Made by a program: the position numbers and the translations under genes. Shown here piece after piece: positions 12,901-33,900 of a stretch of DNA of 64,000 nucleotides. Location of the stretch: NCBI GenBank assembly GCA_000934665.2, contig KZ538029.1, positions 62,001-126,000 on the forward strand, written 5' to 3'. Under the pieces are notes generated by a model that was not told where the DNA came from, made no database searches, and saw only the letters and a program-made list of their open reading frames with translations. Positions within the stretch are counted from its first letter, which is position 1; every line of letters starts with the position of its first letter. The DNA comes from Catajapyx aquilonaris. Taxonomy: Eukaryota.

Positions 12901-15900
12901 TTTTAAAAATCCGGCAAACCCGGAAATTCTTGGGAACTAACCGTGCTTTGTACTCGATTGCGAAGTTCAACAGTGGGCATCCACCGTCATTCCAGGCGTT
13001 CAGATGCAGGGTGACGCTATTGGCAAACACTTCGATGAACCTGTGCACCTCAGGCACGGACGGTTTGGACCCTTTTGTGCGTGTGTTGAGTATGTCCGAA
13101 GCTTCACCCATGCCGATGCTGAAATATTACAAATTGTTCGTAAAAACAAGCCAGATTCAATGGGTACACAGAGCATACTTATTATGCGATGTGACGTAGA
13201 TCTGATAACGAGTTCCACACCACAGTCCTTCCAAGGTGTAATCTGTGGTTTGTGGTCCGATCTGAACCGTATCCCAGTTTCCAATCTCAGGCTTGTAATG
13301 GAGAGTATAACCGTGGACTGGAGTGCTCTCGTCATGTTGCGGCTTCAGCTTCAGTGTGATGGTGGTTGTGGTTGTTGACGTCAAATGCACATGAGGTGGG
13401 TGAGGCGGTGCTAAAAAATTAAATGAGAAATGAACACAAATGATCATCGGTCTAACATGCGCAATGTTCATACCCAAAACAGTCAGGTGATGCGTGATAG
13501 TGTCATGTCCAAATGCATTTTCAACGGAGCATGTGTATTCCCCTGCGTCGCTACGTGTAACCTCCTGAATGTGCAGTGAACCTTCCGGCAGCAAACGCAT
13601 GCGGTCGTTCGGTGAAAATGTGGCTCCCTTCACTTTCCATTGAATTTCAGGTGGCGGGATCCCAACGGCCTGGCACGGCAACTTGACATCCTCCTTGTAC
13701 GTGGCAGTAAAAGCATCATCAAACGAAGCAATCCTGGCCGGCACTGGAAAAGTTACATAATTAAAATTGCGTAACTCAGCAGAGCATAGAACAGTATGTG
13801 TACAACTCTTTTCAGGCAGAACAAATCGAAACACAAGCACAAAATTTAATTCAGTCTTCAACTGAAGTCACAATTGCGGAATGAAACAATCATATAAACT
13901 TCATGTGAGAGTAACCTACATGAAGTACACGGTTAGTGAACACACACCACTTAGGTGCATGTAAAGACTGACCTTTGTTACTGGGTGATAGATTGACTGC
14001 CTTGGAGGGTTGTCCTTCACCGATGTTTGTGGATGCGGTGACCCAGAACTCGTATCTTTCCTTCTTGCGTAAACCGGAGGCTTCGTAGGTCATTTGGAAG
14101 GGAGGGATTTTCTCAGGGCGGGGTTCACCGTCGTTGCCTTCCTTGTCTGCGTGGCGGATGTACACGGTGTACTGGGTCACAATGCCGTTGGGCTGCTCTG
14201 GTGGCTTCCAGCTGACCAGGATGGAGTCTCCTGACATGACAAGGGCTTTGACGGCTGATGGGGCGCCTGGAACTGGAAGCAACAAGAAAAATGTGATTTA
14301 GTACTGCCTTACTTCTAATGAGTGACCATGATTACAGGAATCTAAATGTCACTTACCATCTTGTTCAGTCTGGCAGTGAATTGGCACAGTGCGAACTCCG
14401 TCGCCTCCTGAAGTAAACGCCAACACTTGCATGCTGTAGTTGGTGTATTTTCTCAGGCCATGAAGTATCGTTTCACTAGCAGATGTTATCTTGGTGTCCT
14501 TTGTGTTCTCATCTGGAAAAGAATCGTTTTGAGTGGTCACCAGCATTAGGGTATTGCACTGCATATATTAAACAATCTGTAGATCACTTACCATACCACA
14601 TCTCACTTGGTCCGTAAATAACTTTGTAACCTTTGATAACACCGTTGGCTGATGAAAGTGGAGGTGAAACCCAGCTAACTCGAATAGTCTGCGATGTCAA
14701 GGTGGTGCAGGTGACATCCTGTGGGGGTTGTTCGGGTGATCCTTCAGCAGTGTACTGAGTCACTTCTTCTGACATGGGGCCGGCACCAATTTTGTTGAAA
14801 GCTTGAACCACGACTGAGTATTGCGTGTAGGTCCTGAAGAAAAAATGTAAGTGGAGTTACATTTTTATGCTACTGTCGGATACTTGAGCAGTTGAGGTGA
14901 TTCGTGTCAGGCAGAGGTCACAGTATCATGGGATCCACTTGTGAGACAAGTACTTAGGTTAGCATACCAGTAATTTTTTCCCCCACCATTTCTAACAAGA
15001 TGGGGTTTATTTTACACACTTATACGAGGTGCCTCTTATGTCAAGGATATCGTGTTCAAGAGCAGTAAGAATCAGTCGTTTTTTAAATTTTAAAAATATG
15101 TAGCTGCGCATGCGCAACATTTTTGGCACATGGGAATTTGGCATGCTACTTGCACAGTTATTTTCAGGAAATCATGAAGTCAACGTCAGGTTGAATAGAA
15201 AATGATTTTAGCTCATGTAAGAGCAACATTTTTTTGTGCTTCAAGTGATATTACCATACTTGAAAATCATGAAAACTTATGTTGCATGAGTTGATGCTTA
15301 CTTCAGATTTCCAATTTGCAAATGATGCTCCTTCCCCATCTCCCGACTGAACTCAACAGTTTCGAAAAGGTAGGGCTTGTCCGAAGAGGCCAGTTTGTAT
15401 CCCACGTAGTATCCTTGGATATCTCCATTCCAGTCCTCTCGCTGTGGGGGCTTCCAGCCTACTTTGAGGGTATGCTGGTCAACAGCATCCACTTTAACGG
15501 AGCGTGGGGGTCCGCTAGGAGCTGTAATAAATTAAAAATTGAAACCGAATCCTTGCAAAAGGGGGCTGCAAGAAAGTTTACTTAATAATAGCTGAATCTT
15601 ACCTTCCTCGGCAGTGATAATGGTAACAGTGTCTGAAGGCTCGGATGCTCCAACTTCATTTTCTGCCACAAGGCGCAGGTGGTAAGTGGTTGCAGGTCTC
15701 AGGTTAAACACACCAGCAACAGTTTGTTGTCCCGGGACCAGTACACGGTCAATGTCAGTCTTCCAGTCACCCTTGGCAATCTTGTATTCAATGAGGTAGC
15801 GGGTGATAACAGAGTTGCCGTCATAAGGAACATTCCACGACAACTGAATTGAGCGACCAGACTTGTCAAGAACCTTTAGGCCGTAAGGCACCTCAGGTGG

Positions 15901-18900
15901 TTCTGGAGGCAAATTTAATATGGATAAAATTAGTTCATACTGTCATTAAAATTGTTAAACAGACTTACCTTGCACAATGAGGTTGATGCTGGTGTCATCA
16001 CTTCCAAAGGCATTGGTGGCAACACAAGTGAACAAGGCAGAATCGGTCCTTTCCGTTCTCTTAATACTCAGATCTGACAGGACGCCATTAGGAAGAATTT
16101 CCTCACGGATGGTATACCTTTCAAAATGGCATCATCATTAATTTAGTACACTCTTCAAAGACTGAAAGTTGAATGAATCATGTTATCACCTGGTGTCAGC
16201 CTTCGAGTCCAGTCGCTTATTGTTCATGTTCCACAGAATTCCAATAGGCTTCTCACCCTTTGCTTCGCATTGGAGCACAGCAGGTTCACCCCGATGAGCA
16301 GTTTGGTTGCGGAATTTGATCTCAAACTGAGGTGGTGCTACAAATTATAATCACACAGTGAGTTACTTTCAAAGTATCATATGTAATGCAGTCAATTTTG
16401 AGAGAAAGCAATGAGATACTATGTTAGACTATTTGAAATCTAGGTGGACACTGAATTACTTTAATTGCAATAAGATGGACTTTATTTATGAATCTCACCT
16501 TGAACACTGATGAATATAACAGCGGATAAACCAGGGCCAATGCCATTGGTTGCCTCGCACAGGTAATAACCCTCATTGGCCTTCTGGATGTTGAGGATGG
16601 TCAACGTGCCCTCCTCTGACCTCAAGTTTGGACCGCTCTGTTTCAAGTCACGGTATTCTCCTGGTCTGTCTCCTGCTGCCTTTCTCCATTGCAGTTGCGG
16701 CTTAGGGAATCCATCAGCACGACATTCTACTTTGGCTTCTGAGCCCTGTGCAAATGCTTTGTCTGTTGGCTCTACAATCCATCTAGGTGGCACTAAAACA
16801 GAAAAGCTTTTTGTTAGGTTTACTGCCACAGAAGTTGGGGAAAAAAATTTGAACCATGCAAAAAATAAGCGCTTGCCAAATAGATCCAAATTTTTGTTTC
16901 ATAACTAGAGGGTGTCACATCATTAATCATGCATTACTGTGACATGTACCAAAGCATTTAATGCGTGCATTAAAATTACACCCCCAAAGTATCTTTTCCA
17001 ATGTTACGTTACTGACATAGCGCCACATTTAAAGAACATGCAAAACAAAAAATGTAGAAAAGGAAACTAAACAGGAGCTAAGCAGGACAAACAAGAGTAG
17101 AGGGAACGTCTACAAAATTAAAGAAAAAGAAGAAAGCCTGGAAGAATCATCAATTTGTTTAAATAATTCAATCTGACTGCATTTGACTGCTCAGCTGATC
17201 ACTGAACATCATTTGAAATTCATGATTCCTCCATGCACATCCACAGAAGAAGAAAAAAACTACTAGGAAATGGATGGGCTGGACCGGATGGGGTTATTGG
17301 TCTGGATAATATTGGGAAGGGAAAAGGAAGGACAAGTTTCTCCAAACCCCTCCTGGACCTTCAGCCATTTGGAAACTCTGGCAGAAGAAAGGCAGACCAT
17401 GTCAGCTGAGAGAGTATAACGTATCGACAGGACGATTTATTATTATTTTTTTGTTGTTGCAATAAGTGTATACGAGCTGCTGCTGTGTTGGGATGATAAC
17501 AGAAGCTATGGCCCACATTTTTTTTAAAATAATAAAAAAAAGTCTCGCCTAATTTGCCCTTTAGCGCCTTTAAATTGGGGGAAGTATAGGTGATGTGGGG
17601 TTAAAGGATAAACTGGCAGAAATTTTGGTGTACCAAACACCTCCAGTTGAGCCGTGTGATTGGTAGTTCCGGCCTGATTCCTGGCCACGCAAGTGTAGCT
17701 GCCACGATGCTCTGAGGATGCAGGGTCAATGGAGAGCATGCTGGTACGAGGCCCGAACCGTGCAGTGACCGCCCCTTTGGGTGTGGGTTCATGACCTTTT
17801 CCGAAGTACCAGGAGATTTCTAGAGGAAGGTCTCCTCGCTGGACCAAACACATAGCCTGGACAGCTTCTCCGGAGCGGATGGCTTCGGTGCCAAACGAGA
17901 ATGGCAAAATCGCTGGGAACTCTATATGATAGGATTGGAAGGAAAATAGGGACATATGGAATCTGCTGAGCTGGATTTAAATAACAATGTGCTTAAGGTT
18001 AAAAACGTGGCTATGAAGGATGGATCTTTACTCGCAGTAACCCAGTTTGTATTCGCGACAATCTCTAAATATATAAAGCAGAAAGTTTGCTGGTATGTAT
18101 GTCCCGGCTACCTAACCCACTTCTAGACTGTTAAGAGTGCCGAAACTTGGCACACAGATGTCTTAAATGCCGCTGATTGAGGGAAAAGTCCGAAATCTGC
18201 ACTTTTAACACAATTTATATTAGTTTCACCGCCACGGATGTGTGTGAGTGCGCGTGCAGCGAGTTCGCAACTTCTACACCATCTGAGTGAGTTAAGTTAG
18301 GGCGGTGACTTCGCAACTTCCACACCATCTAGCGGTAGTAGTCACGTGAGTGGGTGAGTTCGCAACCTCCACGCTAGACAGTGGAGTGACAGGCTCTCAG
18401 AATCGAGTTTGCTACGAGAATTATTTGAGTCTAAATGCCGAAAGTGAAGCATACGAAGGCCAGTTGGAGTAAGGAAAAAAAAAAATTCATCGGAGTCTCG
18501 CAAGGTTTAACGTCCTGTTACATTTAAGCGGGTACCATTGACTTCTAAGACCGATGAATGTGAACTGGTTCCAGCCTGGTTCCTCGCGGTGCATGTGTAT
18601 TCTCCCTGGTGATCCGGAGTGACTGGATCGATCATGAGCAAGCTAGTTCTGCCACCGATTTTGGTGGTGGTTACTCCTTGTTTCGAAGTTTGGGAACTCC
18701 AGTTGATGTCAATAGGAGCGTCCCCTTTGGAGATGAGGCACGTTACCTGTGCGGCAGCCCCGGCTTGAAAGGGTGTGTCTCCGAAAGTAAATGGAATTAT
18801 CTGGGGGAGTTCTGGAATGAGAGGGGGCCCCCCGGTAATAGGTACAGGGTGTATAATGAAAATAAATGCAACACGTGCCTAACGCTTTTGGGTGGAAATA

Positions 18901-21900
18901 AAATAGTTACAAATTTGGAAGAAAATTTTTGGGGGGGAAACCTTCGTACCCATCACCACCAATTGAGATGTGAAATTGGCCACACCGGCCCTGTTCTTGG
19001 CTTGACACGTGTAATTTCCTGTGTTGGTAGGCTGGACCTCTTCGATGGTCAAGAAATTGATTCGACCCCCTATCCTGGACGTGACCACTCCCATGTCAGT
19101 GGTAACCTCGAGGCCATTGAACAACCAAGAGATATCAATAGGCGAATCTCCCTCTGTACATACGCACTGTACACTGGCTGTTTGACCCGTACGCATTGGC
19201 TCATCTCCAAAGGTGAATGGCACGATTTTTGGAACCACTGTGAGGAATGAAATAATAGTCCTCGTTACATTAAGTGCAATATTTACAGGACGAAATGTAG
19301 ACATTTTCAGCTGCTGCAAATACTGGTCCAATAATAATTAACATACGAATATTTCAAACATTTACTAGTTTATCACTATCATATCGCCCTAATTTGGAAT
19401 GTATTAGTTCGTATGTAGATGTTCCGCAATAGTCTCAATCGGAAATTTACCGAATTTGCCCACTGAAGGCATTTGGGTATGTGTGCTGGATTAGTTGTTA
19501 TTTGAGTATGCAATTATTAGGGCCGAGGAAGTGTATGAAAAGTAAGTTGCATTATACTTTTATCATCTAGTAAGATTATACTGGAACCATGTCTAGGGCC
19601 TTGTAGCTATGGTACTGAATTTATTGTCAGGTAGGTTTCCTCTCCGATGTCAGCTTACCCACGGTAAATAGCCAGTGCAGGAGTATGATTAGTCATATTT
19701 TAAAATGCTCAAAAAGAATAAAATCGTAAGCAAATTAAGCATGAAGCATGGTCTTGTGAAGGGATGTTAAAAAAAGCTGTAGGAAATCAGCGCGGAGAAA
19801 ATTATAAAGTTGGGGACAAGGAGGTGTAAGTAAGTGACCCTCCCTACCGTTGACCTTAAGGTCATCCTCGACTTGCACTTTTCCAGCTGCATTTTCGGCC
19901 ACACAAGAATACCGACCCATGAACTCCGCAGTGACTCTGGCAATGCTCAAAACGATACTGTTCTCTCCAAAAGGCACCGCGGATAATCCCTGAATCCCTT
20001 GCACGTCGTTTCCATCTACTTTCCATCGGAGACTAACTGGAGCATCCCCTTCCAGAAGGGTACAAAGGATGGTAAGGGACTGACCAGCGCTGACAGGACC
20101 GGAGCCAAAGGTGAAGGGAGCTAATTTGGGCGGAACTGAAACGGGATTTGGGCCAACAAAGTTAGTTTACAGAGAAAAAAAAACATGCTAAATTTTCGCG
20201 GAAATGGGAACTACCGTCAACCCTTAGCTCGGCAGTGTAGGAGGCACTACCCCCAGGATTGGTGGCCACGCACGTGTAATTTCCAGCCTGACGAGAAGAG
20301 ACAGACGCGATGGTCAATAAGGAACCAGCAGCCCCAAGAGGCATCATGGTAATGCCCGGCTCAGATGTGAGCTCCAGATCGTCAAATCTCCATATAACTT
20401 TGAGGGGAGAATCACCAGCAATCACGGAACAAGCGACGGTCATGGCGGATCCAGCGCTGAGGGCTTCGTCTCCGAATGAAAATGGCATCAACTTGGGAGG
20501 AACTGGGGTAAAAGCAGAGAGACATGGACGTCACATTTCCATGAGATCACCCTACGAATATCAGGTGGAAGCATCTGTCCAAGATGACTCATCACCAACG
20601 TGGATATAGTGCTACTTTCCCCCAGAGGGAGGCAGTAGCGTACAGAGAGGGAGGCGCGCCATCTGTTAGTTACCAAGTTGTGACTGGAACGGGTGGGGAA
20701 AGGCAAAAAAAAAAGGACAGTAAGTGAAGAACGAATAATTCATGCACCGTCAAAAGCCACCAATGGACATCACATATTGGAGGACAAGCGCATACCGTTG
20801 ACTATCAGTTGAGCACTTGAATTGGAAACTCCTACCGCGTTCTTCACAGTGCATGTGTAATAACCGGTGTGTACAGAGTCCACCATTTCCACAGACAGCA
20901 AGCTCACCCTTGGCCCAACTTTTACGCTAGTGACGCCAGGAAGAATCGACGTCGGATTTTTTGACACTCCTACAGGCATCTTATCATTGCGAAATGACCA
21001 GGAGATATCCAGAGGCAGATCTCCCGCTGCCACTGTGCACTGCAGTGTCGCTAACACGCCAGAACTAAGTGGAAGCTCGCCAAAGGAAAAGGGTACTATT
21101 TGTGGGGTAACTGGAAGAGAGAAAAGGATTTGCCCAATCACACTGTGGAGCATCTCAGCAAAAAATTTGCATACAAAATTTTTGTAGCATGCAAGCTACA
21201 AATATGATGAGATGCTCCACAGTTGATGGTGAAGACACTACGAAGTGACTAATATCATGCCGCCGTGTATAACACATCCTACCGTTAACGTCTAAGTACG
21301 CAGAGTAATTAGCAGAAGCAGCCGCGTTTATAGCCAGACACGTGTAAGTTCCGCGATGGGACGGAGTGACAGACGCGATTGTCAGGATATTGATTCTGCT
21401 TCCGACCATTTGAGTGGCAATCCCAGGATCTCCGAAACCTGACACCTCTCCATGGAAGTTCCAGGTGACAGTCAGGGGCGTATCTCCTTTCGGAACTGAG
21501 CAAGTCAGCTGGGCCATTTCGCCAGCGTTCACTACGCCGTCAAACTCGAAAGGAGATATGTGAGGAGGAACTGGAATGAATATGGTGAACATATTGGACA
21601 AGGTTCGGGGACAACTTATAAACCTTTAAAGACCGGACAGACTAATTGGGGGGTACATAACTCGCAGGTAATCATACCATTGACCTCCAGGTACGCAGAA
21701 TAATTAGCAGATCCCCCAGGGTTTTTGGCATGGCACGTGTAAAGACCTCGGTGATTGGATGTCACAGGCGAAATGGTCAGGAAATTGGCTCTGTTTCCAA
21801 TCATTTGAGTGTCAATGGAAGGCTTTTTGTCATTGTTACGGATTTCGGGCTCGAAGCTCCATGAAATTGTGATGGGTAAGTCACCCTTTCCGACAGAGCA

Positions 21901-24900
21901 GGTTACTTGAACGGTTTCTCCAGCATTAAACGCGTCCTCGAATTCGAATGGTGTAATTTTTGGCGGAACTGCAAAGATAGTTTGGATGTGCTTTGGGATT
22001 AAATGGGTAAAGTACTACTATATAGGTCAGGAGTGCAGGTGGGTCAAACAAGTCGCACACTCACGATCATATAACATACCGTTAACCTCCAAATACGCAG
22101 AATAATTAGCAGACCCCGCATGGTTTTTGGCATGACATGTGTAAAGCCCTCGGTGATTGGATGTCACAGGAGAAATGGTCATGAAATTGGCCTTGTTTCC
22201 AATCATTTGGGTTTCGATATGAGGTTTTTCATTGCTACGAATTTCGGCTTCAAAGCTCCAGGACAGATTGATGGGAAGGTCTCCTTTTCCGACAGAGCAG
22301 GTTACTTGCACGTTATCTCCAGCATTAAACGCGTCCTCAAATTCAAAAGGTGTGATTCGTGGTGGAACTGCAAAGATAGGCTGCTAACAAAAGGAGAACC
22401 TGTCTAAGGGTTGGGGTCCGGGTATAATGGGTGATCAACTAATTAAGCGGTACTTATCAATAATTTTCACTAACATACCGTTAACCTCCAAATACGCAGA
22501 ATAATTAGCAGAGCCCCCTAGGTTTTTGGCATGACAAGTGTAAAGTCCTCGGTGATTGGACGTGACAGGCGAAATGGTTAGGAAATTGGCCCTGGAGCCA
22601 AACATCTGTGTGTCGATAGCAGGCTTGGCATGGGTACGAACTTCAGGTTCAAAGCTCCACGAAACAGTGATGGGAAGGTCTCCTTTCGGAACTGTGCAAG
22701 CCACTTGTATTGTATCGCCTGCATTGGACGCAGCCTCGAATTCGAAAGGGGCTATGTGGGGAGGTACTGCAAAGAACGTAATATTGACGAGAACGATATG
22801 AGATAACAGCCACAGACATACCACATCTGAGGTCCTCAGTTCGATTCCTGGATCGGGTCTAGAATTTGGGAAATAGTTCTCTCAGTGTACCAGTAGGTTT
22901 TCTCGCTATTATCCTAGTGCTGGATATTAATTCCGTCATACTGCTAGCGACATTTTCTGATGCGGCAGACGTGCAAATTGAAGTGCGAGCCGTGCGAGTA
23001 AGAAATGGTAGCCCTTGGGTGACGTCACTGGCTGGGGACAAGCCTTTTTCTCCATTGGCCTCCAGCCAGTGACGTCACTCAAGGCCTACCTCCTCTTACT
23101 CGCAAGGCTCACACATTCGATTTGCACTTCTGTCGCAAGCAGTATGACGCGATTAATGTCCAACACTGTACCAATTATTTTGACAAAATTGATCCCTCAT
23201 GGTGCGCTAATTATTTCCTAAGTATTTAAAAAAATACAATCCAACAGTGGGCGTCAATTTTGAGCACTAAAATGAAATTCCATGTCCCTGAGGAGGGTTG
23301 GAAATGGGTAGGTCATAAGGGAAAACTGGATGCACTTTGAATACACTACAGAACCAGGCAAAGCCTGCCGTAATAATTTAACGACGGGTGCTAATCATAC
23401 CGTTTACTTCCAAATAGGCAGAGTAATTAGCGGAACCGGCCAGGTTTTTGGCATTGCAAATGTACAGTCCTCGGTGGTTGGAGGTGACAGGCGAAATGAT
23501 GAGGAAATTAGCCCTGCTTCCTATCGTCTGAGTCTCGATGGGAGGATCACTATTGGTGCGTATTTCTGCCTCGAATGTCCATGACACCTTGATTGGTAGG
23601 TCTCCCTTAGGAATAGTGCAAGCCACTTGTACTGTATCGCCTGCATTAGAAGCCGCCTCGAATTCGAAAGGCGCTATGTGAGGAGGTACTGAAAAGATTC
23701 ATGTAACGATCGTTGATAATTTCGAACTTAAGTGCGCTGCATGGCTTCAACGGCTTACCGGTAGATGTCGACTGACAAGGCAGAGACATCTACCGTCATA
23801 TCCAGGCTCGATTCATCAATAACACGATTTGAGCAATTTGGCCATCACTAGTGACGTCTGATTGGGATTGGGTCAAAGTAAAAGGGTGGGGCACACGGTA
23901 ATTAGGGAAGAAAATGAGAGGTGATTAGTGCGTCTACTGTTATGACATCAAACTTTTTGGGCTGACAGGCGGTATATACCATTAACTTCCAAATAGGCCG
24001 AGTAATTTGCGGATCCCCCATAGTTTTTGGCATGGCATGTGTACAGTCCACGGTGATTGGGGGTCACAGGCGAAATGGTCAGGAAGTTGGCCCTGGCGCC
24101 AAACATCTGGGTGTCAATAGGTGGGTTGCTGTTGGTACGGATTTCGGCCTCGAAGCTCCACGAAACTGTGATGGGGAGGTCTCCTTTCGGCACGGAGCAT
24201 GTTACTTGCACGGTATCGCCTGCGTTAGACGCCTCTTCGAACTCGAATGGGGTTATACGAGGAGGAACTGCAAATATGGGTCATATTGGCAAGGGTCATG
24301 ATCTTGTAAGGAAATGTGTCCGGGATATGTTCGGGGGAACTGTGCCAAGAAACTACTACAAGTTAAATCACCAAAAGTTGATGGCTAATCATACCGTTAA
24401 CCTCCAAATATGCAGAGTAATTAGCATGCCCCCCGAAGTTCTTGGCATGACACGTGTAGATACCCCGATGACTTGGGGTCACTGGTGAAATTGTCAGAAA
24501 ATTGGCTCTGCCTCCGATCGCTTGTGTCTCGATTGGAGGTTGAGCATTGCTACGAACTTCGGCCTCAAAGGTCCACGACACGGTGATTGGAAGGTCTCCT
24601 TTTGGTACCGAGCATGTTACTTGTACTGTATCGCCTGCGTTGGATGGACCTTCGAATTCGAAAGGGGTAATACGAGGAGGAACTGCAAAGAGAGTGTGGT
24701 TCCCACTGATTTGTGTCCAAATTATTATTTTTTAAGTTGCGATTACCCTTGGAATGTACTGTTTATGTCGGTATGTCGGCATTAAAGGCTGCGTGTATGC
24801 GCAAACATGAGATACGCCTGAAATGTTGACTTCACGTTGCACAGAGCTGCAGGTTTGCCTTACAACCAGGATAAAAATTTTTGCGTAAGATTCGTTCAGT

Positions 24901-27900
24901 GAAGTCAATAATTAAACTCCTACATCTATAAAGCTCACATAGTAGTGCTAGACTATAGACATTAAATAATAAGTTCTGCTTTTAGCCTACTTGAAGGAAT
25001 GTACTTAACTCAAGTCCCTTTGGTTACTGTCCCTTTCTTGGACACACTAACCCGGAGTCCCCAGAGAGAGGGGCGGGTATACACTCTTGTGTGACTAGCG
25101 GACTAGGTCAACCCCTCCTCTCGGATGCTGCCTAATTTATGAGCCATCGTGAATTCAGCAGGGGTACGTCATTGCACACAGCGGCGCACAATTCACGTGC
25201 TTGCGTTACATGATAAAAGAACGGTGCTCTGTGTGGGACTGGGATTTGGCTGCTACTATATATGTGCTAATTTCACCAGTTGTATAGTTAGGATCTAAGC
25301 TGTACTTTGTCTGGATATAGTCATTGTGGTCAGTATATGGCATGTTCCGATATTATTTGGAAATGGCAAATCAATTACGATTCTGCACGTAATGCATGCG
25401 ATATAGTCAGTCCATATCGACAGGACACGGTGATCTTTGGTCAGTAATCTTATGGAGGAGGGGTCATACATTAATAATGCACATACACTTTCTCCTGATC
25501 ATGATAAATTGATGGCAGCTTGAAGACGAGTTATGCCAATAGTGGTAAGGCTGGACGACCTATTTTTAGCATAAATAAATATCAAATCAAATTCCTTAGC
25601 ACGCAGCCTTCGAAACGCGACTAGGACATAAAATACCGCTAATAAAACTGCAAAAATCCATCATTTGAATACTTGTATGCACCGCACGAGGTACACATTC
25701 CACAGGGCTCTCAGGTAAAACTTAAAATGAATACAGGCTGAAAAATCGAGACTAGACACCATGTACTATAAGGTCTGCGATAATGTAACACCCACCCTGT
25801 GTGTGTAGAAAGACCTGAATAGGCGTGATCGACCGCTTGAATGTTGAGGACTCTAACTCAGAGGCAGCATCTGAATTATAGCCACGCCATTTGTTCTCTC
25901 CGTAATTGGCTCTCCTTGCAAGCTTCCAGGAGATAAGTCCTTTAGCTGTCATGCATGCTCCTCTGGCTCGACTGTTTTCCAAAGGAAATGGGAGGACGAT
26001 CTATATGGAAACTTCTGTGTGGTGCACATGGTTTATTATGGATATATACCAGCAGGGGGAGGGCTATGGAGGTTTACGCTACAGTCCTCGCAGAATTTGA
26101 TGGCGAATCAGAGGGGCTGTTGGTTGAAAGTCTCTCGTAATCCCAATCCAATTCGGCTTGAATTTGGAGGATCCACCCTATTCAGCATGGATTTGACGTG
26201 ATTGTCCATTCCATAAAGCCTAGCGAATTAGTGATGGAGGAAAATTAGAGTAGCTGCTAAAATATCACCGTGTAATTTGGGTTGCATCATGCAAGGATGA
26301 AAAGTACCCAATTAGCTGATGTCCCAGTTTAAATTTTTTTTACCTCGCTACAACTCATATAGACCAGATCATTCATAATGTGCACTTTTCCTCATCACTA
26401 TACTGTGCGAATTTATCGCAAATTTTGGCCTGCAGTCGCCCCAAATTATGCCAAAACACCCTGCGCAGACTGTATATAGAAAAGCATGCGTCACATCAAC
26501 GCTATCAACATTGGTTTGGCGGCTACATCCCTATATACATTTTGACCACTATCCTCTCATACCGTTGACCTCCAAATAAGATGTGTAAGTGGCTGATGAG
26601 ACAGCGTTTCTGGCCTGACACGTGTACGTTCCCCTGTGACTTGGGGTTACAGAAGAAATGGTCAACACGTTGGCCCTCCGACCCACCATGTTGGTGGATA
26701 TCCCCGGATCTCCGGATCCGGGCACATCCCCTTGAAAGTTCCACGATATGGTCAGGGGCATGTCGCCCTTAGGAACCGAGCAGATGACCTGGGCCATGTC
26801 TTCTGCATTGGAAGGACCCTCAAACTCGAAAGGGATGATGCGAGGAGGCACTGGAAATGAACAGCGGACAACTTTTTTTCTTTTTGTCACCTAATATTCC
26901 TACAACCCGTCACATTCTCATGTAGTCCAGGGGGGCCATAAACTCTTGCAATCTCAGACAGCAAAAGAGGAAAGTCAACACTTACCGACAGATGAATTCT
27001 CACTGATCCTCTCACTTTCACTCACAAGATCCTTTTGCACAGCACTTCACTGCAAAACACTTCATTCACTCACGAAAATCCTTGCACCAGACACATCCTC
27101 GTCACTATATGGTAATCCCATCTTCTGCATATATCCAACTACCAAATGCGAAACTGTGGAACAAGCGACACTTCCTCCCGAGTACGACACGATTGGATAA
27201 AATCTGGATTCACATGGGCGTTCGCTACAGTTGCACCAACCGCAAAGGCAACGACGCCCGTGTGAACCCATGGGTTTGGACCAGTTGGGTGGTTGTGAGA
27301 AAAAATGGTTAAGGTGACCTGTTGACAAAATTACAGTACCGTGGACCACCAATTCGGCAGTGTAGTTGCTAGCCCCTGCTGGATTTCTAGCCAAGCATGT
27401 GTAGTTCCCTGCATGTGCAGCACTGAGCAGGTCGAAATTCAAAATGGTAGATCTCTGCCCTACTTTTATGACAGATACAGCTTCCCGGTGAGCCATCACT
27501 TGTTGGCCTTCCATCAACCAGAGAATATCAAGGGGCAAATCTCCCTCGGGTACATAGCACAACACTTGTGTGGGCTTTCCTGTCGTCATGTTACTCTCAA
27601 ATGCGAAAGGTATCACCTTGGGCAAAACTGTAACGGAATTAAAAAGCGATCGTATGTTTTTAAAGGGGTTTGGATTCGGTTGAGGTCAAAGGTCAGGGAG
27701 GGACGCAACTCCTGTAATTTCTCGTAATACCGTGAACTATTAGTTCGGCTGTGAAATTGTCGGCTCCTGCTGAATTTCTGGCCAGACACGTGTAGTTGCC
27801 AGTGTGGGCAGCGTTAAGTGTGTCAATGCTCAAGATGCTCGACCTTTGACCCACTGTGGTCACCGTGACTTCCTGACGATACACCCTAACCTGCTGTCCC

Positions 27901-30900
27901 TCCACCAGCCACAGAATGTCGATTGGAAGGTCGCCTCCAGCAACATAACACATGACTTGCGTGTGCATCCCAGATGTTAGGCCAGGTTCAAAGTCAAAGG
28001 GTGCTACTTTGGGTAAAACTGGAAAAATAGGGAGTAATATTTTTTATAATTATAACTTATTCATACCGTGAATAATTAATTCCGCTGTGACGTTAGATGA
28101 CCCTCCTGAATTTCGAGCAAGGCAAGTGTAGTTTCCGGAATGGGCTGCGCTCAAACTATCAAAACTGATGATGCTAGATCTCTGTCCAACCTTCATGACA
28201 GTTATTCCTTCACGATGAGCCATGACCTGCTGACCTTCAACCAGCCAGAGGATATCTAATGGCAGGTCACCTTCAGCCACATAGCACATTACTTGGGTCG
28301 GTTTTCCGGACAACAAATTGGCATCGAAGGTGAAAGGATTGACCAAGGGTAAAACTGGAAGGAATAGCAGCAGCTTTTCAATGTTTTAAAACACGTGGGA
28401 AAATCAGTAGGCTTTACGCGTCACTGCCTATTCCTGCCAAATTCATGTAATTATTGTTTGAAATTACTGGAACTGTGTGGAGAAACCTGTGGTGTTAAAC
28501 ATTCAATTTTCTGAATGTGTCATACCCTGTACTATCAGTTGAGACGTGTAATTCCCTGCCCCTGCAGCATTTCGAGCCAAGCACGTGTAGTTTCCAGCAT
28601 GAGCAGCAGAGAGACTCTCAATGTTCAAGATGCTGGATCTTTGACCGACTTTGATTACTGTCACGCCTTCACGATGGGCCTGAACTTGTTCGCCTTCCAC
28701 CAACCACAGAATTTCCATTGGAAGTTCCCCTTCAGGTACGAAGCAAGCCACTTGGGCTGGCTTTCCAGCCAGGATGTCATGCTCGAAACTGAACGGGTTG
28801 ACTTTTGGAAGTACTAAAAAAATGGCAAAATTGGAGTGTGTATATAGGGTACAGAGTGGGATATGCGGGAAAAAAAAGGTTAGAACATAATAGTTTTTTC
28901 TGAAGGGTCTGACCCTGAACAACTAATTCAGCAGTGTAGTTGCTGCTTCCAGCCCCGTTTCTTGCAAGACACGTGTAGTTTCCAGCATGGGCAGCACTCA
29001 GAGTCTCAATGACTAATAAGCTTATTCTCTGTCCCATTTTGTTGACCAATATTCCTTCTCTGTGGGCTTTGACTTGCTCGCCTTCCATCAGCCAGGTAAT
29101 GTCCATTGGCAGGTCACCCTCAGACACAAAGCAAGTGGCCTGAGCAGGTTTGCCTGCTTGCATGTCGTTATCAAACGCGAAAGGAGCAACTTTTGGAAGT
29201 TCTGCAACGACATTTTGCTACACTGATGAATTAATGCAAATATTGTGGAGGGGTCTGGAGAATTCTTGCAGATTACACTTTAGCTATAAAAAATGCCTAA
29301 GTTACAATACCCTGAACTATTAGCTCGGCTGTGAAATTAGCGGATCCGCCTGGATTACGGGCCAAACATGTGTAATTTCCAGCATGTGCAGCCTGCAAAT
29401 TCTCAATCAGCAGCATACTGACTCTCTGGCCCATTTTAGTGACTGTAATTCCTTCTCGATGAGCCACCACCTGTTGTCCCTCGACCAACCAGGTAATGTC
29501 CAAAGGCAAGTCTCCTTCTGAGACGAAGCAGGTGACTTGTGTTGGTTTACCGGCTAACACGTCGTTCTCAAAGCTGAATGGACTTACTTTAGGCAGCACT
29601 GGAATGAACATATCCCGTATTTTGTTAAGCTACAATGTTTTTTCTTCGAAAAAAAAGGCGCTACCTGGAAGTTTGGAGAAACTAGGTTCGTTTTTTGGGA
29701 GTAGCTCGTGACTATTTAATCACATTCATCCTACCCTGAACCACCAGTTCAGCAGTGTAGTTATTAGCACCAGCAGCATTACGAGCCAAGCATGTGTAAT
29801 TTCCAGCATGAGCTGCTTGCAAATCCTCGATCACAAGCATGCTAATTCTATTGCCCAATTTTGTGACGGTGACGCTCTGCCGATGCGCCATGACCTGTTG
29901 GCCCTCCACTAACCAAGTGATGTCCATTGGAAGGTCACCGTGAGGAACGAAGCAAGTGACCTGAGCAGGTGATCCGGACATCATGTTCTCGTCGAAACTA
30001 AACGGAGCTACTTGCGGGAACACTATACGGGAAGAAATATTTTGGGGGTGTAACACGGTAATAGGCGAGGTCAGGTCCAGTTGGGGTTAGTGGCAGAAGT
30101 GATAAGGAATATCCTATAGCCAGAGTACTGATTAATGACTACCATGGACAATCAACTCTGTGGTGTAGTTGCTTGCGCCAACAGCATTCCTTGCAAGACA
30201 AGTGTAGTTTCCACTATGAGCTGCTTTCAAGCCCTCGATATTGAGGATAGTTGACCTCTGCCCGACTTTTATGACGCTGATGCCCTCCCTGTGGGCCATA
30301 ACCTGCTGACCCTCCATCAACCACAGGATGTCCAGAGGGAAGTCACCCTTAGGCACGAAACATGTAACTTGTGCTGGAGAACCTTCCAGCAGTTCTTCTT
30401 CAAACGCGAATGGCAATACCTGCGGCAAGACTGAAGAATCGCGTTTTAAGTAAACTTTATAGCTATGCTTATGTACAATCCGGCCTGCTCTTAAAAGTCC
30501 ATGAGGGGTTTGAAGTCTCACTTTACGAGTACAGTACCGTGCACAATTAATTCGGCGGTGTAATTGCTGGACCCTCCTGAGTTCCTGGCCAGACACGTAT
30601 AATTTCCGGAGTGGGCTGCATTGATATTGTCAATGTTCAGGATGCTGGATCTGAGACCGACTTTGATGACGGTTATTCCTTCGCGATGAGCCTTCACTTG
30701 CTGGCCCTCCACTAACCAAGTGATGTCCATGGGAAGTTCACCCTCAGGGACGAAGCAAGTCACTTGAGCTGGCTTTCCGGCCAAGATGTCGCGCTCGAAT
30801 ATGAACGGGTTGACTTTTGGCAGCTCTACAAAGAGGCGTATCGCGTGAGTATGACTTTGTATTGAATTGAGTTGACGCGTGTGGCAAAAACATCAGCCAG

Positions 30901-33900
30901 ATTGTATCGTGATGCATGTAACTGAAAGCCCAAGAGAAGCCTGGAGAATGTGGACTGTTTACACCGACTAATTTTGGAAGGAAGGTTTTAAGGGACACGG
31001 TTAAAAATAAGAATCGGTTGAGATATACCCTGCACAACTAGCTCAGCTGTAAAATTCGACGCTCCACCAGGATTTCGGGCCAAACAAGTATAGTTTCCAG
31101 CATGAGCAGCTTGTAAGCTGTCGATCATAAGGAAGCTGGCTCTCTGGCCCATCTTGGTGACTGTAATCCCCTCGCGATGGGCCATCACCTGCTGACCTTC
31201 GACCAACCAGGTGATGTCCAAGGGCAAGTCTCCCTCAGGTGCAAAGCAAGTTACTTGCGTCGGTTTACCAGAAAGGACATCATTCTCAAAGCTGAATGGA
31301 TTAACTCTAGGAAGAACTGTAATTAAATTGTATACGGTTTCTCAGTGAAGTTTGGAGAAACTGGGGGTCTGCCTACTGGATAAACTAACTGATGTACCCT
31401 GAACCACTAGTTCCGCAGTGTAGTTATTAGCTCCCGCAGCATTTCGAGCCAAACATGTGTAGTTCCCTGCATGAGCTGCCTGCAGGTTCTCTATCAGAAG
31501 CATACTGACTCGCTGGCCCATTTTGGTGACAGTGACGCTCTGCCGATGAGCCATCACTTGCTGGCCTTCCACTAACCAAGTGATATCCATAGGGAGGTCC
31601 CCTTGTGGCACGAAGCAAGTCACCTGCGCAGGCTCTCCCGACATCATATTTTCGTCAAAATTAAATGGAGCTACTTGCGGAAAAACTGCAGGAACGAAAT
31701 GGCCATAAGTGCTTGTGTCGTACAACCGGATGCCTATACACGGTCCAGAGGAGCTTGGATTGCTACAGGATTGTATCGGGATTAATTGTTGCGTTGTTGT
31801 TTTTTCGTTATCTACCCTGAACGATCAACTCTGCAGTGTAATTGCTGGCTCCCACAGGGTTCCTTGCAAGACATGTGTAGTTTCCGGTGTGAGCTGCCTT
31901 CAGGGCGTCGAAGTTAAGTATGCTCGATCTTTGCCCAACTTTAAGGACACTGATGCCTTCGCGATGTGCCATGACCTGCTGGCCCTCCATCAGCCATAGG
32001 ATATCGAGAGGGAAGTCTCCTTTCGCCACAAAGCAATTCGCTTGAGCTGGAGCACCCTCCTGTAGTTCTTCGTCAAACGAAAATGGCGACACCTGGGGTA
32101 AGACTGAAATTTTTGCGAATTTAATCTACGTTCTCTATCATGGGCATTGGCGAATCCCCATGTTTATTAGCTAGATTCTCATAAGATACCCAATACGCAT
32201 CAATGCTGCGCAGCTAGATTTGGAAATAAGGAAAGTAATTCCAATACTAGCTGCGCAACCATACTGCGCAGCTAGTCCGTATTTCCAAGTCTAGCTGCGC
32301 AGCATGGATGCGCACTGGGTTTATATTATCAGAATCGAGCTAATATGAGCCTGATACTCGTACAAATGACATTCGAAAGTCCAAGAGGGGGGCAAGGATG
32401 TGAGATGAAACGAGGCTGATGGACCCTACTTTTGTTTTACCGTGAACTATCAATTCTGCAGTGTAATTGCTCGATCCTCCTGGATTTCTGGCCAGACACG
32501 TGTAATTCCCAGCGTGGGCCGCTTTTAGGTTGTCAATGTTGAGGATGCTGGATCTCTGCCCCAGTTTTGTCACGGACAACCCCTCCCGATGGGCCATGAC
32601 CTGCTGGCCTTCCACCAGCCAGGTCACATCCAAGGGCATGTCACCCTTGGGCACGAAACATTGCACTTGAACCGGGGAGCCTGGCAGCAGTTCCTCCTCG
32701 AAGGCAAATGGCAACACCTGAGGCAGCACTGCAAAGCGTGTCTTTTGAGAGGAGGAGAACTAGTCCAAGGATTTGTTTTTGCAAAAAAGGGTTTTTATAC
32801 TGGTTTGACTTTTTCTATGGACCCTGTACCGTGCACCACAAGTTCTGCAGTCCTATTATCTGATCCCCCTGCGTTTCGAGCCAGACACGTGTAGTTTCCG
32901 GCATGTGCGGCGTTCAGAATGTCGATGCTAAGGATGCTCGACCTCTGACCCAGCTTAGTGACTGTGATGCCCTGGCGGTGGGCTATGACCTGCTGACCCT
33001 CTACCAACCAGGTTATGTCCATGGGCAGGTCGCCCTTGGGCACAAAGCATGTCACTTGAGCGGGTGCTCCGGACATCATGTCTTCGTCGAAAGAAAACGG
33101 TGCCACTTGTGGCAATACTAGAACAGGGCATGTCACTCGCCTTTGGGGTCTTACAAGCTATCGGTTGCTGAAAGTAACCTGTGTTAGCGAGCGAGCAAGA
33201 AGCACATGAATTTACATAATTATGTGACACATGCTGTGCGCACATACTTGCATTTATATGCACTTTTTAAATTAAATTATGCAGTGCTTCTTGCTGCTCA
33301 TACATTTCTTACACAAACATTAGAGCACTCAATCTAACTTTTTAGCTACTGAGCACAAGTTACTTTTCACTTATGTACTGTACACTATCAGTAAAAAATT
33401 CGTTTCGGATATACCTATCCTGTCTCTCTTTGCAACCATCGTCACTTTTTTCTTATTCTTTTCTTTAGATGAATGGTTACATAAATCAGAGTCCGACATA
33501 CGGTACAGTGCAGGATATTAATTACATACGAATTGCAAAATTACGTCGAGTGTGGGTCGTTTACAAGGGTCCGCATATGTGTCTTCAGATCTCGTACAGT
33601 ACATTACATACGTGTAGATTGAGTGCTCTAAAGTATGTAAGTACATAATCGCTTTTCAAAATGTCATTAGGTTAACTTTCCTCACCGGTTTTTCAGAATA
33701 TAGCGCAAGTAATGTTCTGCTTTATTTATTATTCATCCATGAACGAGTTTTGAAAAATGCAGAAATTATGATTACACCAATTAGGCCTTGTTGTATATGC
33801 ACTTTTTGGGGGGTCTAAAATCATTGTTTTGAACTATAATGAAATGTTCGTTACAAAAACTTGTCACTCTTTAATACTGTTCTGAAAGTTCAATTATGAA

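What the first reader, a model, noticed from the sequence alone, without database searches (positions are those of the whole stretch)
17330..17366. Downstream docking site for the 28-exon Ig7 cluster, with selectors 3' of many variants
Seen: RNA AAGGUCCAGGAGGGGUUUGGAGAAACUUGUCC between 9.28 and exon 10 is complementary to intron motifs after 9.4 (31350-31362, 13/13), 9.8 (29671-29683, 13/13), 9.9 (29247-29262, 15 WC + 1 GU), 9.6 (30497-30515, 17 WC + 1 GU of 19), 9.13 (27664-27674, 11/11) and 9.11 (28475-28490). Looser matches follow 9.1, 9.2, 9.3, 9.7, 9.16 and 9.18. The selectors cover overlapping windows, so only one can pair at a time. Known: downstream docking occurs in insect exon 4 and 9 clusters with clade-specific sequences; I do not recognise this sequence.
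Basis: partly seen in the sequence, partly recalled or inferred. Interest (0 to 1): 0.75.

Follow-up and report, generated by a model that had tools for sequence, protein, structure and literature searches.

The report
Dscam exon-9 downstream docking site
A short stretch in the last intron of an insect Dscam1 gene's 28-exon Ig7 cluster can base-pair with matching motifs just after about ten of the first fourteen alternative exons, the known RNA trick for choosing one exon at a time, here with a sequence not seen before and covering only the far half of the cluster.

Summary
The window carries a Dscam1-like gene on the minus strand with 28 tandem Ig7 (exon 9) variants (33117-17634) and exon 10 at 16792-16498. 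The stretch 17367-17332 lies in the last intron, 266 nt after variant 9.28. In an unbiased scan of the whole 64 kb transcript strand it is the best pairing partner for the introns after 9.1-9.14 (z 9.5-10.4; next best about 4.4-5, low-complexity runs). Against 100 dinucleotide shuffles the pairing energy gives z = -8.0 for those introns but only -1.0 for the introns after 9.15-9.27. It missed the strongest, a 30-bp helix after 9.5, and its 9.16 and 9.18 matches are at chance level. Selectors start 23-81 nt after the 5' splice site and all cover the same GGGG core, so only one can pair at a time. No upstream docking site was found. I read it as a Drosophila/midge-type downstream docking site serving the distal half of the cluster: a new member of a known kind. 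There is no RNA, cross-species or mutational evidence, so function is inferred.

The parts
17332..17367 (-). Docking site in the intron between variant 9.28 and exon 10. The core GGGG at 17350-17347 is used by every supported helix.
   Evidence: Best pairing 30-mers of the last intron. Top site of the whole 64 kb transcript strand for the introns after 9.1-9.14. Coverage of positions by helices.
17634..33117 (-). Exon 9 (Ig7) cluster, 28 variants, 9.1 at 33117-32830 to 9.28 at 17921-17634
   Evidence: tblastn and splice-site mapping
16793..17633 (-). Last intron of the cluster (841 nt). The docking site starts 266 nt after the 5' splice site of 9.28 and ends about 540 nt before exon 10.
16498..16792 (-). 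Constitutive exon 10 (Ig8)
   Evidence: 77% identical to insect Dscam proteins
32784..32794 (-). Marginal selector after 9.1 (8 WC + 3 GU)
   Evidence: 6 of 100 shuffles reach its duplex energy
32374..32390 (-). Selector after 9.2 (17 bp: 14 WC + 3 GU)
   Evidence: 0 of 100 shuffles
31747..31759 (-). Selector after 9.3 (13 bp: 10 WC + 3 GU)
   Evidence: 0 of 100 shuffles
31347..31362 (-). Selector after 9.4 (16 bp: 14 WC + 2 GU; 13 exact)
   Evidence: 4 of 100 shuffles
30919..30948 (-). Selector after 9.5, the strongest (30 bp: 21 WC + 9 GU, no mismatch; -48 kcal/mol)
30492..30515 (-). Selector after 9.6 (24 positions: 20 WC + 3 GU + 1 mismatch)
   Evidence: 0 of 100 shuffles
30073..30088 (-). 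Selector after 9.7 (14 WC with a 2-nt internal mismatch)
   Evidence: 0 of 100 shuffles
29668..29683 (-). Selector after 9.8 (16 bp: 14 WC + 2 GU; 13 exact)
   Evidence: 3 of 100 shuffles
29247..29262 (-). Selector after 9.9 (16 bp: 15 WC + 1 GU)
   Evidence: 1 of 100 shuffles
28459..28490 (-). Selector after 9.11 (core 28478-28490, 12 WC + 1 GU; an extended helix has 6 mismatches)
   Evidence: 3 of 100 shuffles
27664..27704 (-). Probable selector region after 9.13: an 11/11 exact complement at 27664-27674 and a 21-position helix at 27684-27704
   Evidence: its duplex energy alone is not significant (16 of 100)
27272..27280 (-). Weak candidate after 9.14 (9/9 WC, 60 nt after the 5' splice site)
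   Evidence: not significant by energy (30 of 100)

Best explanation
17367-17332 is a downstream docking site of the Dscam1 exon 9 cluster. In the pre-mRNA, this G/U-rich stretch in the last intron can pair with one of about ten to twelve selector sequences. Each selector starts 23-81 nt after the 5' splice site of a distal variant (9.1-9.9, 9.11, probably 9.13, perhaps 9.14). All helices use the same GGGG core, so only one selector can be paired at a time. The paired selector loops out the 10-15 kb of downstream variants and brings the 5' splice site of its own exon next to exon 10, which favours that exon. Shown here: the complementarity, its position, its uniqueness in the window and its statistical excess. 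Inferred from the published Dscam model: that the helices form in vivo and steer splicing. The proximal variants 9.15-9.28 have no detectable selectors and presumably rely on proximity or on another mechanism.
For: Gene and exon map.

Unbiased scans:
- Of 347 30-mers across the last intron and beyond, the three best-pairing all lie at 17368-17329 (sum -720 vs mean -374, sd 83).
- Over the whole 64 kb transcript strand the site ranks first for the introns after 9.1-9.14. z is 10.4 with GU allowed and 9.5 with WC-weighted scoring. The next sites score 5.0 and 4.4 and are G-runs or A/T runs.

Controls:
- Shuffle control: z -8.0 for introns 1-14, 0 of 100 shuffles reaching the sum.
- Enrichment: 10 of 21 hits >= 29 and 7 of 7 hits >= 35 lie in 3.5% of the window.
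- De novo 7-mers in those introns recover pieces of the reverse complement: TTCTCCA in 5 of 14 and TCCAAAC in 4 of 14. Total support is 37 vs 4.1 +/- 2.6, against 1, 5 and 7 for the same-sense, reversed and unreversed-complement controls.

Arguments for pairing over a shared motif:
- Selectors share little sequence with each other (9.2 pairs with 17363-17347, 9.4 with 17350-17335), yet each complements the site.
- All 11 supported helices cover 17350-17347.
- The exons are old paralogs: third-codon-position identity is 30-59%, and the introns cannot be aligned except at the selector (the introns after 9.4 and 9.8 share 16 identical nt).
- Pairing is stronger in the sense RNA than in the antisense (-471 vs -394 kcal/mol summed over introns 1-14).

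Method check and parallel case:
- The same scan puts the exon 6 docking site in the exon 5-6.1 intron, where the published model has it (top of 64 kb, z 5.3).
- An unrelated arthropod contig (L008) shows the same layout with a different sequence.
Against: - No related genome, RNA run or experiment was available, so conservation, covariation and any effect on splicing are untested.
- The introns after 9.15-9.27 show no excess pairing (z -1.0). About half of the cluster is therefore unexplained.
- Within the first fourteen, 9.10, 9.12 and 9.14 have no significant selector, and 9.13 fails the energy test.
- The G:U versus A:C test gives no strand signal beyond composition: 45 of 66 (68%) transitions are G:U, against 67% expected from the 24 G/T of 36 core bases.
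- The local fold of the site is unremarkable (z 0.58).
- For Drosophila melanogaster exon 9, a published analysis found no special pairing propensity of the proposed docking site and doubts the model (PMC6800468, passages read).
Confidence: 0.72

Rival explanations
1. The intron motifs are binding sites for a splicing regulator, kept in each paralogous intron. Their complementarity to 17367-17332 is a side effect, and that stretch is another binding site in the opposite orientation.
For: The motifs sit at a similar distance from the 5' splice site (23-81 nt). The G:U versus A:C test gives no RNA-strand signal beyond composition. Ustaoglu et al. suggest protein binding for conserved Dscam cluster elements (PMC6800468).
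Against: Selectors such as those after 9.2 and 9.4 share almost no sequence with each other but complement adjacent parts of the one site. Helices reach 24-30 bp (9.6, 9.5), far longer than a protein motif. The same-sense sequence of the site is not enriched in the introns (support 1 versus 37 for the reverse complement).
Confidence: 0.08
2. The pattern is a neutral relic. Selectors were copied along with exon duplications and one copy was inverted into the last intron. The pattern persists but does nothing today.
For: Variants 9.1-9.14 form one paralog family, so shared intron pieces could come from common descent. There is no functional or comparative evidence for constraint.
Against: Third-codon-position identity among these exons is 30-59%, and the introns are otherwise unalignable. 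Even so, 10-11 of 14 introns keep a match to the site. Different introns keep different parts of the complement, all including the same core. A single inversion does not predict that.
Confidence: 0.12
3. The matches are chance or a composition artefact: a G-rich stretch pairs with pyrimidine-rich introns.
For: G-runs elsewhere in the window reach z about 5 in the GU-tolerant scan. In the last-intron scan the site also ranks first for the introns after 9.15-9.27 (z -3.1), although shuffles show no excess there.
Against: Dinucleotide shuffles of the site never reach the observed sum for introns 1-14 (0 of 100, z -8.0). WC-weighted scoring still ranks it first (z 9.5). Exact 10-13 nt complements occur only in these introns.
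Confidence: 0.02

Closest known systems
Downstream docking site-selector pairings of the Dscam1 exon 9 cluster in Drosophila (Yang et al. 2011, known to me only through citing passages in PMC4691838 and PMC7430681) and in midges (Hong et al. 2020, PMC7430681, passages read)
   Same: The docking site lies in the intron before exon 10. Selectors lie downstream of variable exons. The selectors compete for one site. In D. melanogaster only some variants have apparent pairings, as here.
   Different: The primary sequence was not found in the searched text: a text search for four 11-nt pieces found 99 papers, none on Dscam among the 10 listed, and published sites are mostly in figures I could not read. 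In the Antarctic midge all 21 variants are reported to have selectors. Here the selectors are confined to the distal 14 of 28 variants. The insect is not close to any annotated species (exon 10 at most 77% identical).
Bidirectional (dual docking site) pairings of Dscam exon 9 in Lepidoptera, Hymenoptera (Yue et al. 2016, PMC4691838, passages read) and Coleoptera (Dong et al. 2021, PMC8042237, sections 12 and 13 read)
   Same: Clade-specific docking sequence; long-range intronic pairing within the exon 9 cluster.
   Different: No upstream docking site was detected in the exon 8-9.1 intron (best z -2.5 versus about -5 for the downstream site). The selectors sit near the 5' splice site of the exon they follow.
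Exon 6 docking site-selector system (Graveley 2005, as described in PMC4691838 and PMC6800468)
   Same: One site competes for many selectors. The window's own exon 6 cluster (28 variants found) gives its best pairing site in the exon 5-6.1 intron near 47381.
   Different: The exon 6 docking site is upstream of its cluster with selectors upstream of each variant. The exon 9 site here is a mirror image of that.

Membership tests
Dscam downstream docking site-selector system (exon 4/9 type) | Site lies in the intron between the last variable exon and the next constitutive exon | tested here: met
   17367-17332 lies in the 841-nt intron 17633-16793 between 9.28 and exon 10
Dscam downstream docking site-selector system (exon 4/9 type) | Complementary selector in the intron downstream of the variable exons | tested here: inconclusive
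   Met for 10 introns (after 9.1-9.9 and 9.11; at most 6 of 100 shuffles reach each) and probably 9.13. Not met as a group for the introns after 9.15-9.27 (z -1.0), where only 9.20, 9.21 (1 of 100 each) and 9.27 (4 of 100) stand out
Dscam downstream docking site-selector system (exon 4/9 type) | Selectors overlap on the site, so only one can pair at a time | tested here: met
   11 of 11 supported helices cover 17350-17347
Dscam downstream docking site-selector system (exon 4/9 type) | Pairing propensity exceeds that of other sequences of the gene (the test that the D. melanogaster exon 9 site failed in PMC6800468) | tested here: met
   Top of all positions of the 64 kb transcript strand for introns 1-14 (z 10.4 and 9.5)
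Dscam downstream docking site-selector system (exon 4/9 type) | Conservation of the site and covariation of pairs across related species | not testable with these tools
   No genome is held. The metagenome loci with exon 10 relatives are 56-73% identical and carry no similar site. No earlier notes exist
Dscam downstream docking site-selector system (exon 4/9 type) | Disruptive and compensatory mutations change and restore exon inclusion | not testable with these tools
   This needs an experiment. No RNA run is listed for this DNA
Bidirectional (dual docking site) exon 9 architecture | A second docking site in the intron after exon 8 that pairs with elements inside the cluster | tested here: not met
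   Scan of 34085-33118 in 30-nt windows every 6 nt: best z -2.5, no distinct peak. The whole-window scans show no second site

The most novel reading that the evidence does not exclude
The docking site governs only the distal half of the cluster. On this reading, long-range pairing is a distance-compensation device that lets the 14 variants lying 10-15 kb from exon 10 compete with the 14 proximal variants, which are chosen without pairing. One gene would then hold a pairing-dependent and a pairing-independent sub-cluster side by side. That is a natural internal control for the disputed question of whether exon 9 choice needs RNA pairing at all.
Probability: 0.3. Interest if true: 0.6.

Novelty: new member of a known kind. 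Interest (0 to 1): 0.45.

Why it matters
Whether Dscam exon 9 choice depends on docking-selector pairing is disputed. A published analysis found that the proposed D. melanogaster site pairs no better than sampled intron sequences (PMC6800468). The midge cluster shows clear pairing (PMC7430681). This locus passes that kind of test by a wide margin, in an insect that is not close to any annotated species. It also shows a sharp split between a selector-bearing distal half and a selector-free proximal half. If RNA-seq or mutagenesis in this species confirmed it, the locus would add a clean further case and a built-in control for the model. As it stands it is a well-supported computational example of a known mechanism, not a new one.

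Tried and rejected
- Second docking site for 9.15-9.28: I scanned the last intron, the first intron, the whole window against intron starts and the regions upstream of 9.15-9.28. Only low-complexity G-runs or A/T runs turned up.
- De novo 7-mers in the introns after 9.15-9.27 gave only A/T-rich words.
- G:U versus A:C asymmetry as proof of RNA-level selection: no signal beyond composition.
- Local hairpin masking the site: the fold is not better than shuffles (z 0.58 for 121 nt, -1.27 for the whole intron).
- Known RNA families: 0 Rfam matches at gathering score in 15900-34200.
- Related sequences: no genome is held. Of 11 metagenome loci with exon 10 relatives, none has a similar sequence upstream of exon 10, only 10-13 nt chance matches.
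- Sequencing runs: no RNA holder is listed. The four holders are DNA of one sample that may be the source, so nothing was laid.
- Species: two protein searches gave at most 51% identity (variant 9.28) and 77% (exon 10). A crude per-species identity tally was inconclusive.
- Literature: a search for Dscam docking sites in other insect orders was swamped by order names, and none of its 12 listed papers concerns Dscam.
- Exon 4 cluster (11 variants): no distinct docking site by the same scan.

Full report
WHAT IS THERE

The window holds a complete Dscam1-like gene on the minus strand. A tblastn with a mayfly Dscam1 protein maps it from about 56500 to 8000:
- an exon 4 cluster at about 53135-48987;
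- exon 5 at 48073-47846;
- an exon 6 cluster at 47095 to about 35600;
- exons 7-8 at 35511-34086;
- the Ig7 (exon 9) cluster;
- the constant exons.

A tblastn with the last Ig7 variant finds 28 tandem copies between 33115 and 17635, all at E <= 5.5e-13. Each has an AG acceptor and a GT donor. 25 of 28 are exactly 288 nt. Exon 10 is 16792-16498, so the last intron is 17633-16793 (841 nt).

Yes.
- 13 nt after 9.4 (31350-31362);
- 13 nt after 9.8 (29671-29683);
- 11 nt after 9.13 (27664-27674);
- 10 nt after 9.6 (30503-30512).

Ungapped helices with G-U allowed:
- 9.9: 15 WC + 1 GU (29262-29247);
- 9.6: 20 WC + 3 GU + 1 mismatch (30515-30492);
- 9.4 and 9.8: 14 WC + 2 GU each;
- 9.2: 14 WC + 3 GU (32390-32374);
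- 9.3: 10 WC + 3 GU;
- 9.7: 14 WC around a 2-nt mismatch;
- 9.11: a 13-bp core at 28490-28478.

It is 30 consecutive pairs (21 WC + 9 GU) at 30948-30919, -48 kcal/mol.

IS IT MORE THAN CHANCE

Five independent controls say so.
1. I slid a 30-mer over the last intron and beyond (347 windows) and summed the best duplex energy with each of the 27 inter-variant introns. The three best windows are 17368-17329 (-720, -700, -691 kcal/mol; mean -374, sd 83).
2. An ungapped pairing scan of every position of the 64 kb transcript strand ranks the site first for the introns after 9.1-9.14. z is 10.4 with G-U allowed (next 5.0, G-runs) and 9.5 with Watson-Crick-weighted scores (next 4.4).
3. Against 100 dinucleotide shuffles of the 42-mer 17370-17329, the summed energy for introns 1-14 has z = -8.0, and 0 of 100 shuffles reach it. 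Per intron, 0 of 100 reach 9.2, 9.3, 9.5, 9.6 and 9.7; 1 reaches 9.9; 3-6 reach 9.1, 9.4, 9.8 and 9.11.
4. Of 21 transcript-strand hits scoring >= 29, 10 lie in the 2,235 nt of introns after 9.1-9.14. Of 7 hits scoring >= 35, all 7 do. The non-transcribed strand gives 11 and 2, leaving out the site's own self-match.
5. The commonest 7-mer of those introns is TTCTCCA (5 of 14), followed by TCCAAAC (4), GTTTCTC, TTTCTCC and CAAACCC (3 each). All are pieces of the reverse complement of the site. The 36 7-mers of the reverse complement have a summed intron support of 37, against 4.1 +/- 2.6 in shuffled introns (0 of 500 reach 37). The same-sense, reversed and unreversed-complement controls give 1, 5 and 7.

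As a check of the method, I ran the same scan with the regions upstream of 27 of the 28 exon 6 variants. Its best site of the whole window lies near 47381, inside the exon 5-6.1 intron, where the published exon 6 docking site lies (z 5.3).

WHERE THE SIGNAL STOPS

The introns after 9.15-9.27 show no excess as a group (z -1.0). Only 9.20 and 9.21 (1 of 100 each) and 9.27 (4 of 100) stand out.

Within the first fourteen:
- 9.10 (44 of 100) has no significant partner.
- 9.12 (26 of 100) has none either; its downstream intron is only 48 nt.
- 9.14 (30 of 100) has only a 9-nt exact match, 60 nt into the intron.
- 9.13 fails the energy test (16 of 100) despite its exact 11-mer.

I looked for another docking site for the proximal variants in the last intron, in the exon 8-9.1 intron (best z -2.5), over the whole window and with the regions upstream of 9.15-9.28. 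I found only low-complexity runs. The architecture is therefore one-sided (downstream docking site only) and covers the distal half of the cluster.

HOW IT MOST LIKELY WORKS

The selectors start 23-81 nt after the 5' splice site of the exon they follow, in introns of 81-337 nt. They lie 10-15 kb upstream of the site. All 11 supported helices include 17350-17347 (GGGG), so they exclude each other.

In the published model for downstream docking sites, the paired selector loops out all variants between itself and exon 10 and places its own exon's 5' splice site next to exon 10. I know that model through PMC4691838 and PMC7430681. That step, and the formation of the helices in vivo, are inferred here, not shown.

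Three points argue for pairing and against a shared protein motif:
- The selectors differ from each other. The one after 9.2 pairs with 17363-17347, the one after 9.4 with 17350-17335.
- Helices reach 24-30 bp.
- Only the reverse complement of the site is enriched in the introns, not the same-sense sequence.

Against a neutral relic: third-codon-position identity among 9.1-9.14 is 30-59%, and the introns cannot be aligned except at the selector. The introns after 9.4 and 9.8 share 16 identical nt there.

Sense-strand pairing is stronger than antisense, -471 against -394 kcal/mol over introns 1-14, and most of all for 9.5 (-48 against -25).

EVIDENCE AGAINST, AND GAPS

- The G:U versus A:C count (45 versus 21) equals what the G/T-rich composition of the site predicts (68% against 67%). 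It gives no proof of selection at the RNA level.
- The site is not part of a notable local structure.
- No Rfam family matches the cluster.
- No genome of this organism or a relative is held. No earlier notes exist.
- No RNA run is listed, and the only holders are DNA of one sample.
- Metagenome contigs that encode exon 10 relatives are 56-73% identical and carry no similar site.

Conservation, covariation and expression therefore remain untested.

The organism is an insect without a close annotated relative. Exon 10 is at most 77% identical to bee, wasp, moth and mayfly Dscam proteins. Variant 9.28 is at most 51% identical, to a mayfly protein.

COMPARISON WITH WHAT IS KNOWN

Downstream docking sites are published for several exon 9 clusters:
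- Drosophila, where only a few variants have apparent pairings;
- midges, with all 21 variants in Belgica antarctica (PMC7430681, passages read);
- Lepidoptera and Hymenoptera, together with an upstream site (PMC4691838, passages read);
- Coleoptera, likewise with an upstream site (PMC8042237, sections 12 and 13 read).

These papers state that the sequences are clade-specific. A text search for four 11-nt pieces of this site found no Dscam paper among the 10 listed of 99. Published sites are mostly in figures and supplements that I could not read.

The model is disputed for D. melanogaster exon 9, where the proposed site showed no special pairing propensity against sampled intron sequences (PMC6800468, passages read). 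The site here passes that kind of test clearly.

It is a new member of a known kind. Its distinctive feature is the sharp split between a selector-bearing distal half and a selector-free proximal half.

SIDE RESULT

In the metagenome contig L008, from an unrelated arthropod, five exon 9 variants precede exon 10. A GC-rich stretch at L008:2302-2331 in the last intron pairs with motifs 45-62 nt into each of the four inter-variant introns. The energies are -25 to -37 kcal/mol, summing to -120 against -80 +/- 6.7 for shuffles (0 of 200). I picked the site after the scan, where it ranked second of 13 kb, so the shuffle figure overstates its significance. The layout is the same as in the window, with a different sequence.

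VERDICT

Observation: confirmed. Interpretation: partly supported, because the site serves about ten to twelve of the first fourteen variants and is not shown to serve all 28. Confidence that it is a functional docking site: about 0.7. Interest: 0.45.

Noticed in passing
window 47360-47405 (minus strand), in the intron between exon 5 and exon 6.1: This is the best pairing partner in the whole window for the regions upstream of 27 exon 6 variants (z 5.3; 10 of 27 score >= 16). It lies where the conserved exon 6 docking site is expected. I did not compare it with the published consensus.
   Followed up: partly
L008:2302-2331 with L008:483-1876: A metagenome contig from an unrelated arthropod has five exon 9 variants and a candidate downstream docking site of different, GC-rich sequence. 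It pairs 45-62 nt into each of the four inter-variant introns (sum -120 vs -80 +/- 6.7 kcal/mol in shuffles). The site was chosen after the scan.
   Followed up: partly
window 28066-28019 (minus strand): The intron between 9.12 and 9.13 is only 48 nt and holds no selector. An intron this short may by itself prevent the two exons from being spliced to each other.
   Followed up: no
window 28913-28908 (minus strand): Variant 9.10 has an unusual 5' splice site (GTCAGA; the other 27 start GTA) and no significant selector. It may be rarely used.
   Followed up: no
window 26562-24683 (minus strand): The 1,880-nt intron after 9.15 is far longer than its neighbours. It lies one exon past the boundary between the selector-bearing subfamily (9.1-9.14) and the rest. 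No extra Ig7 exon was found in it at E <= 10. Its content was not examined.
   Followed up: no
window 53135-48987 (minus strand): The exon 4 cluster has 11 variants. The same pairing scan finds no distinct docking site for it, only A/T-rich runs.
   Followed up: partly
window 17329-17305 (minus strand): A pyrimidine tract (CCTTCCTTTTCCCTTCCC) directly follows the docking site. In the local fold its CCCUUCC pairs with the GGAGGGG core of the site. This could be a closed state or a protein-binding tract. The fold is no better than shuffles.
   Followed up: partly
window 32300-32140 (minus strand), intron after 9.2: Several copies of a short palindromic unit (CTAGCTGCGCAG and its reverse) fill the 3' part of this 337-nt intron. 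They may be a small inserted repeat.
   Followed up: no
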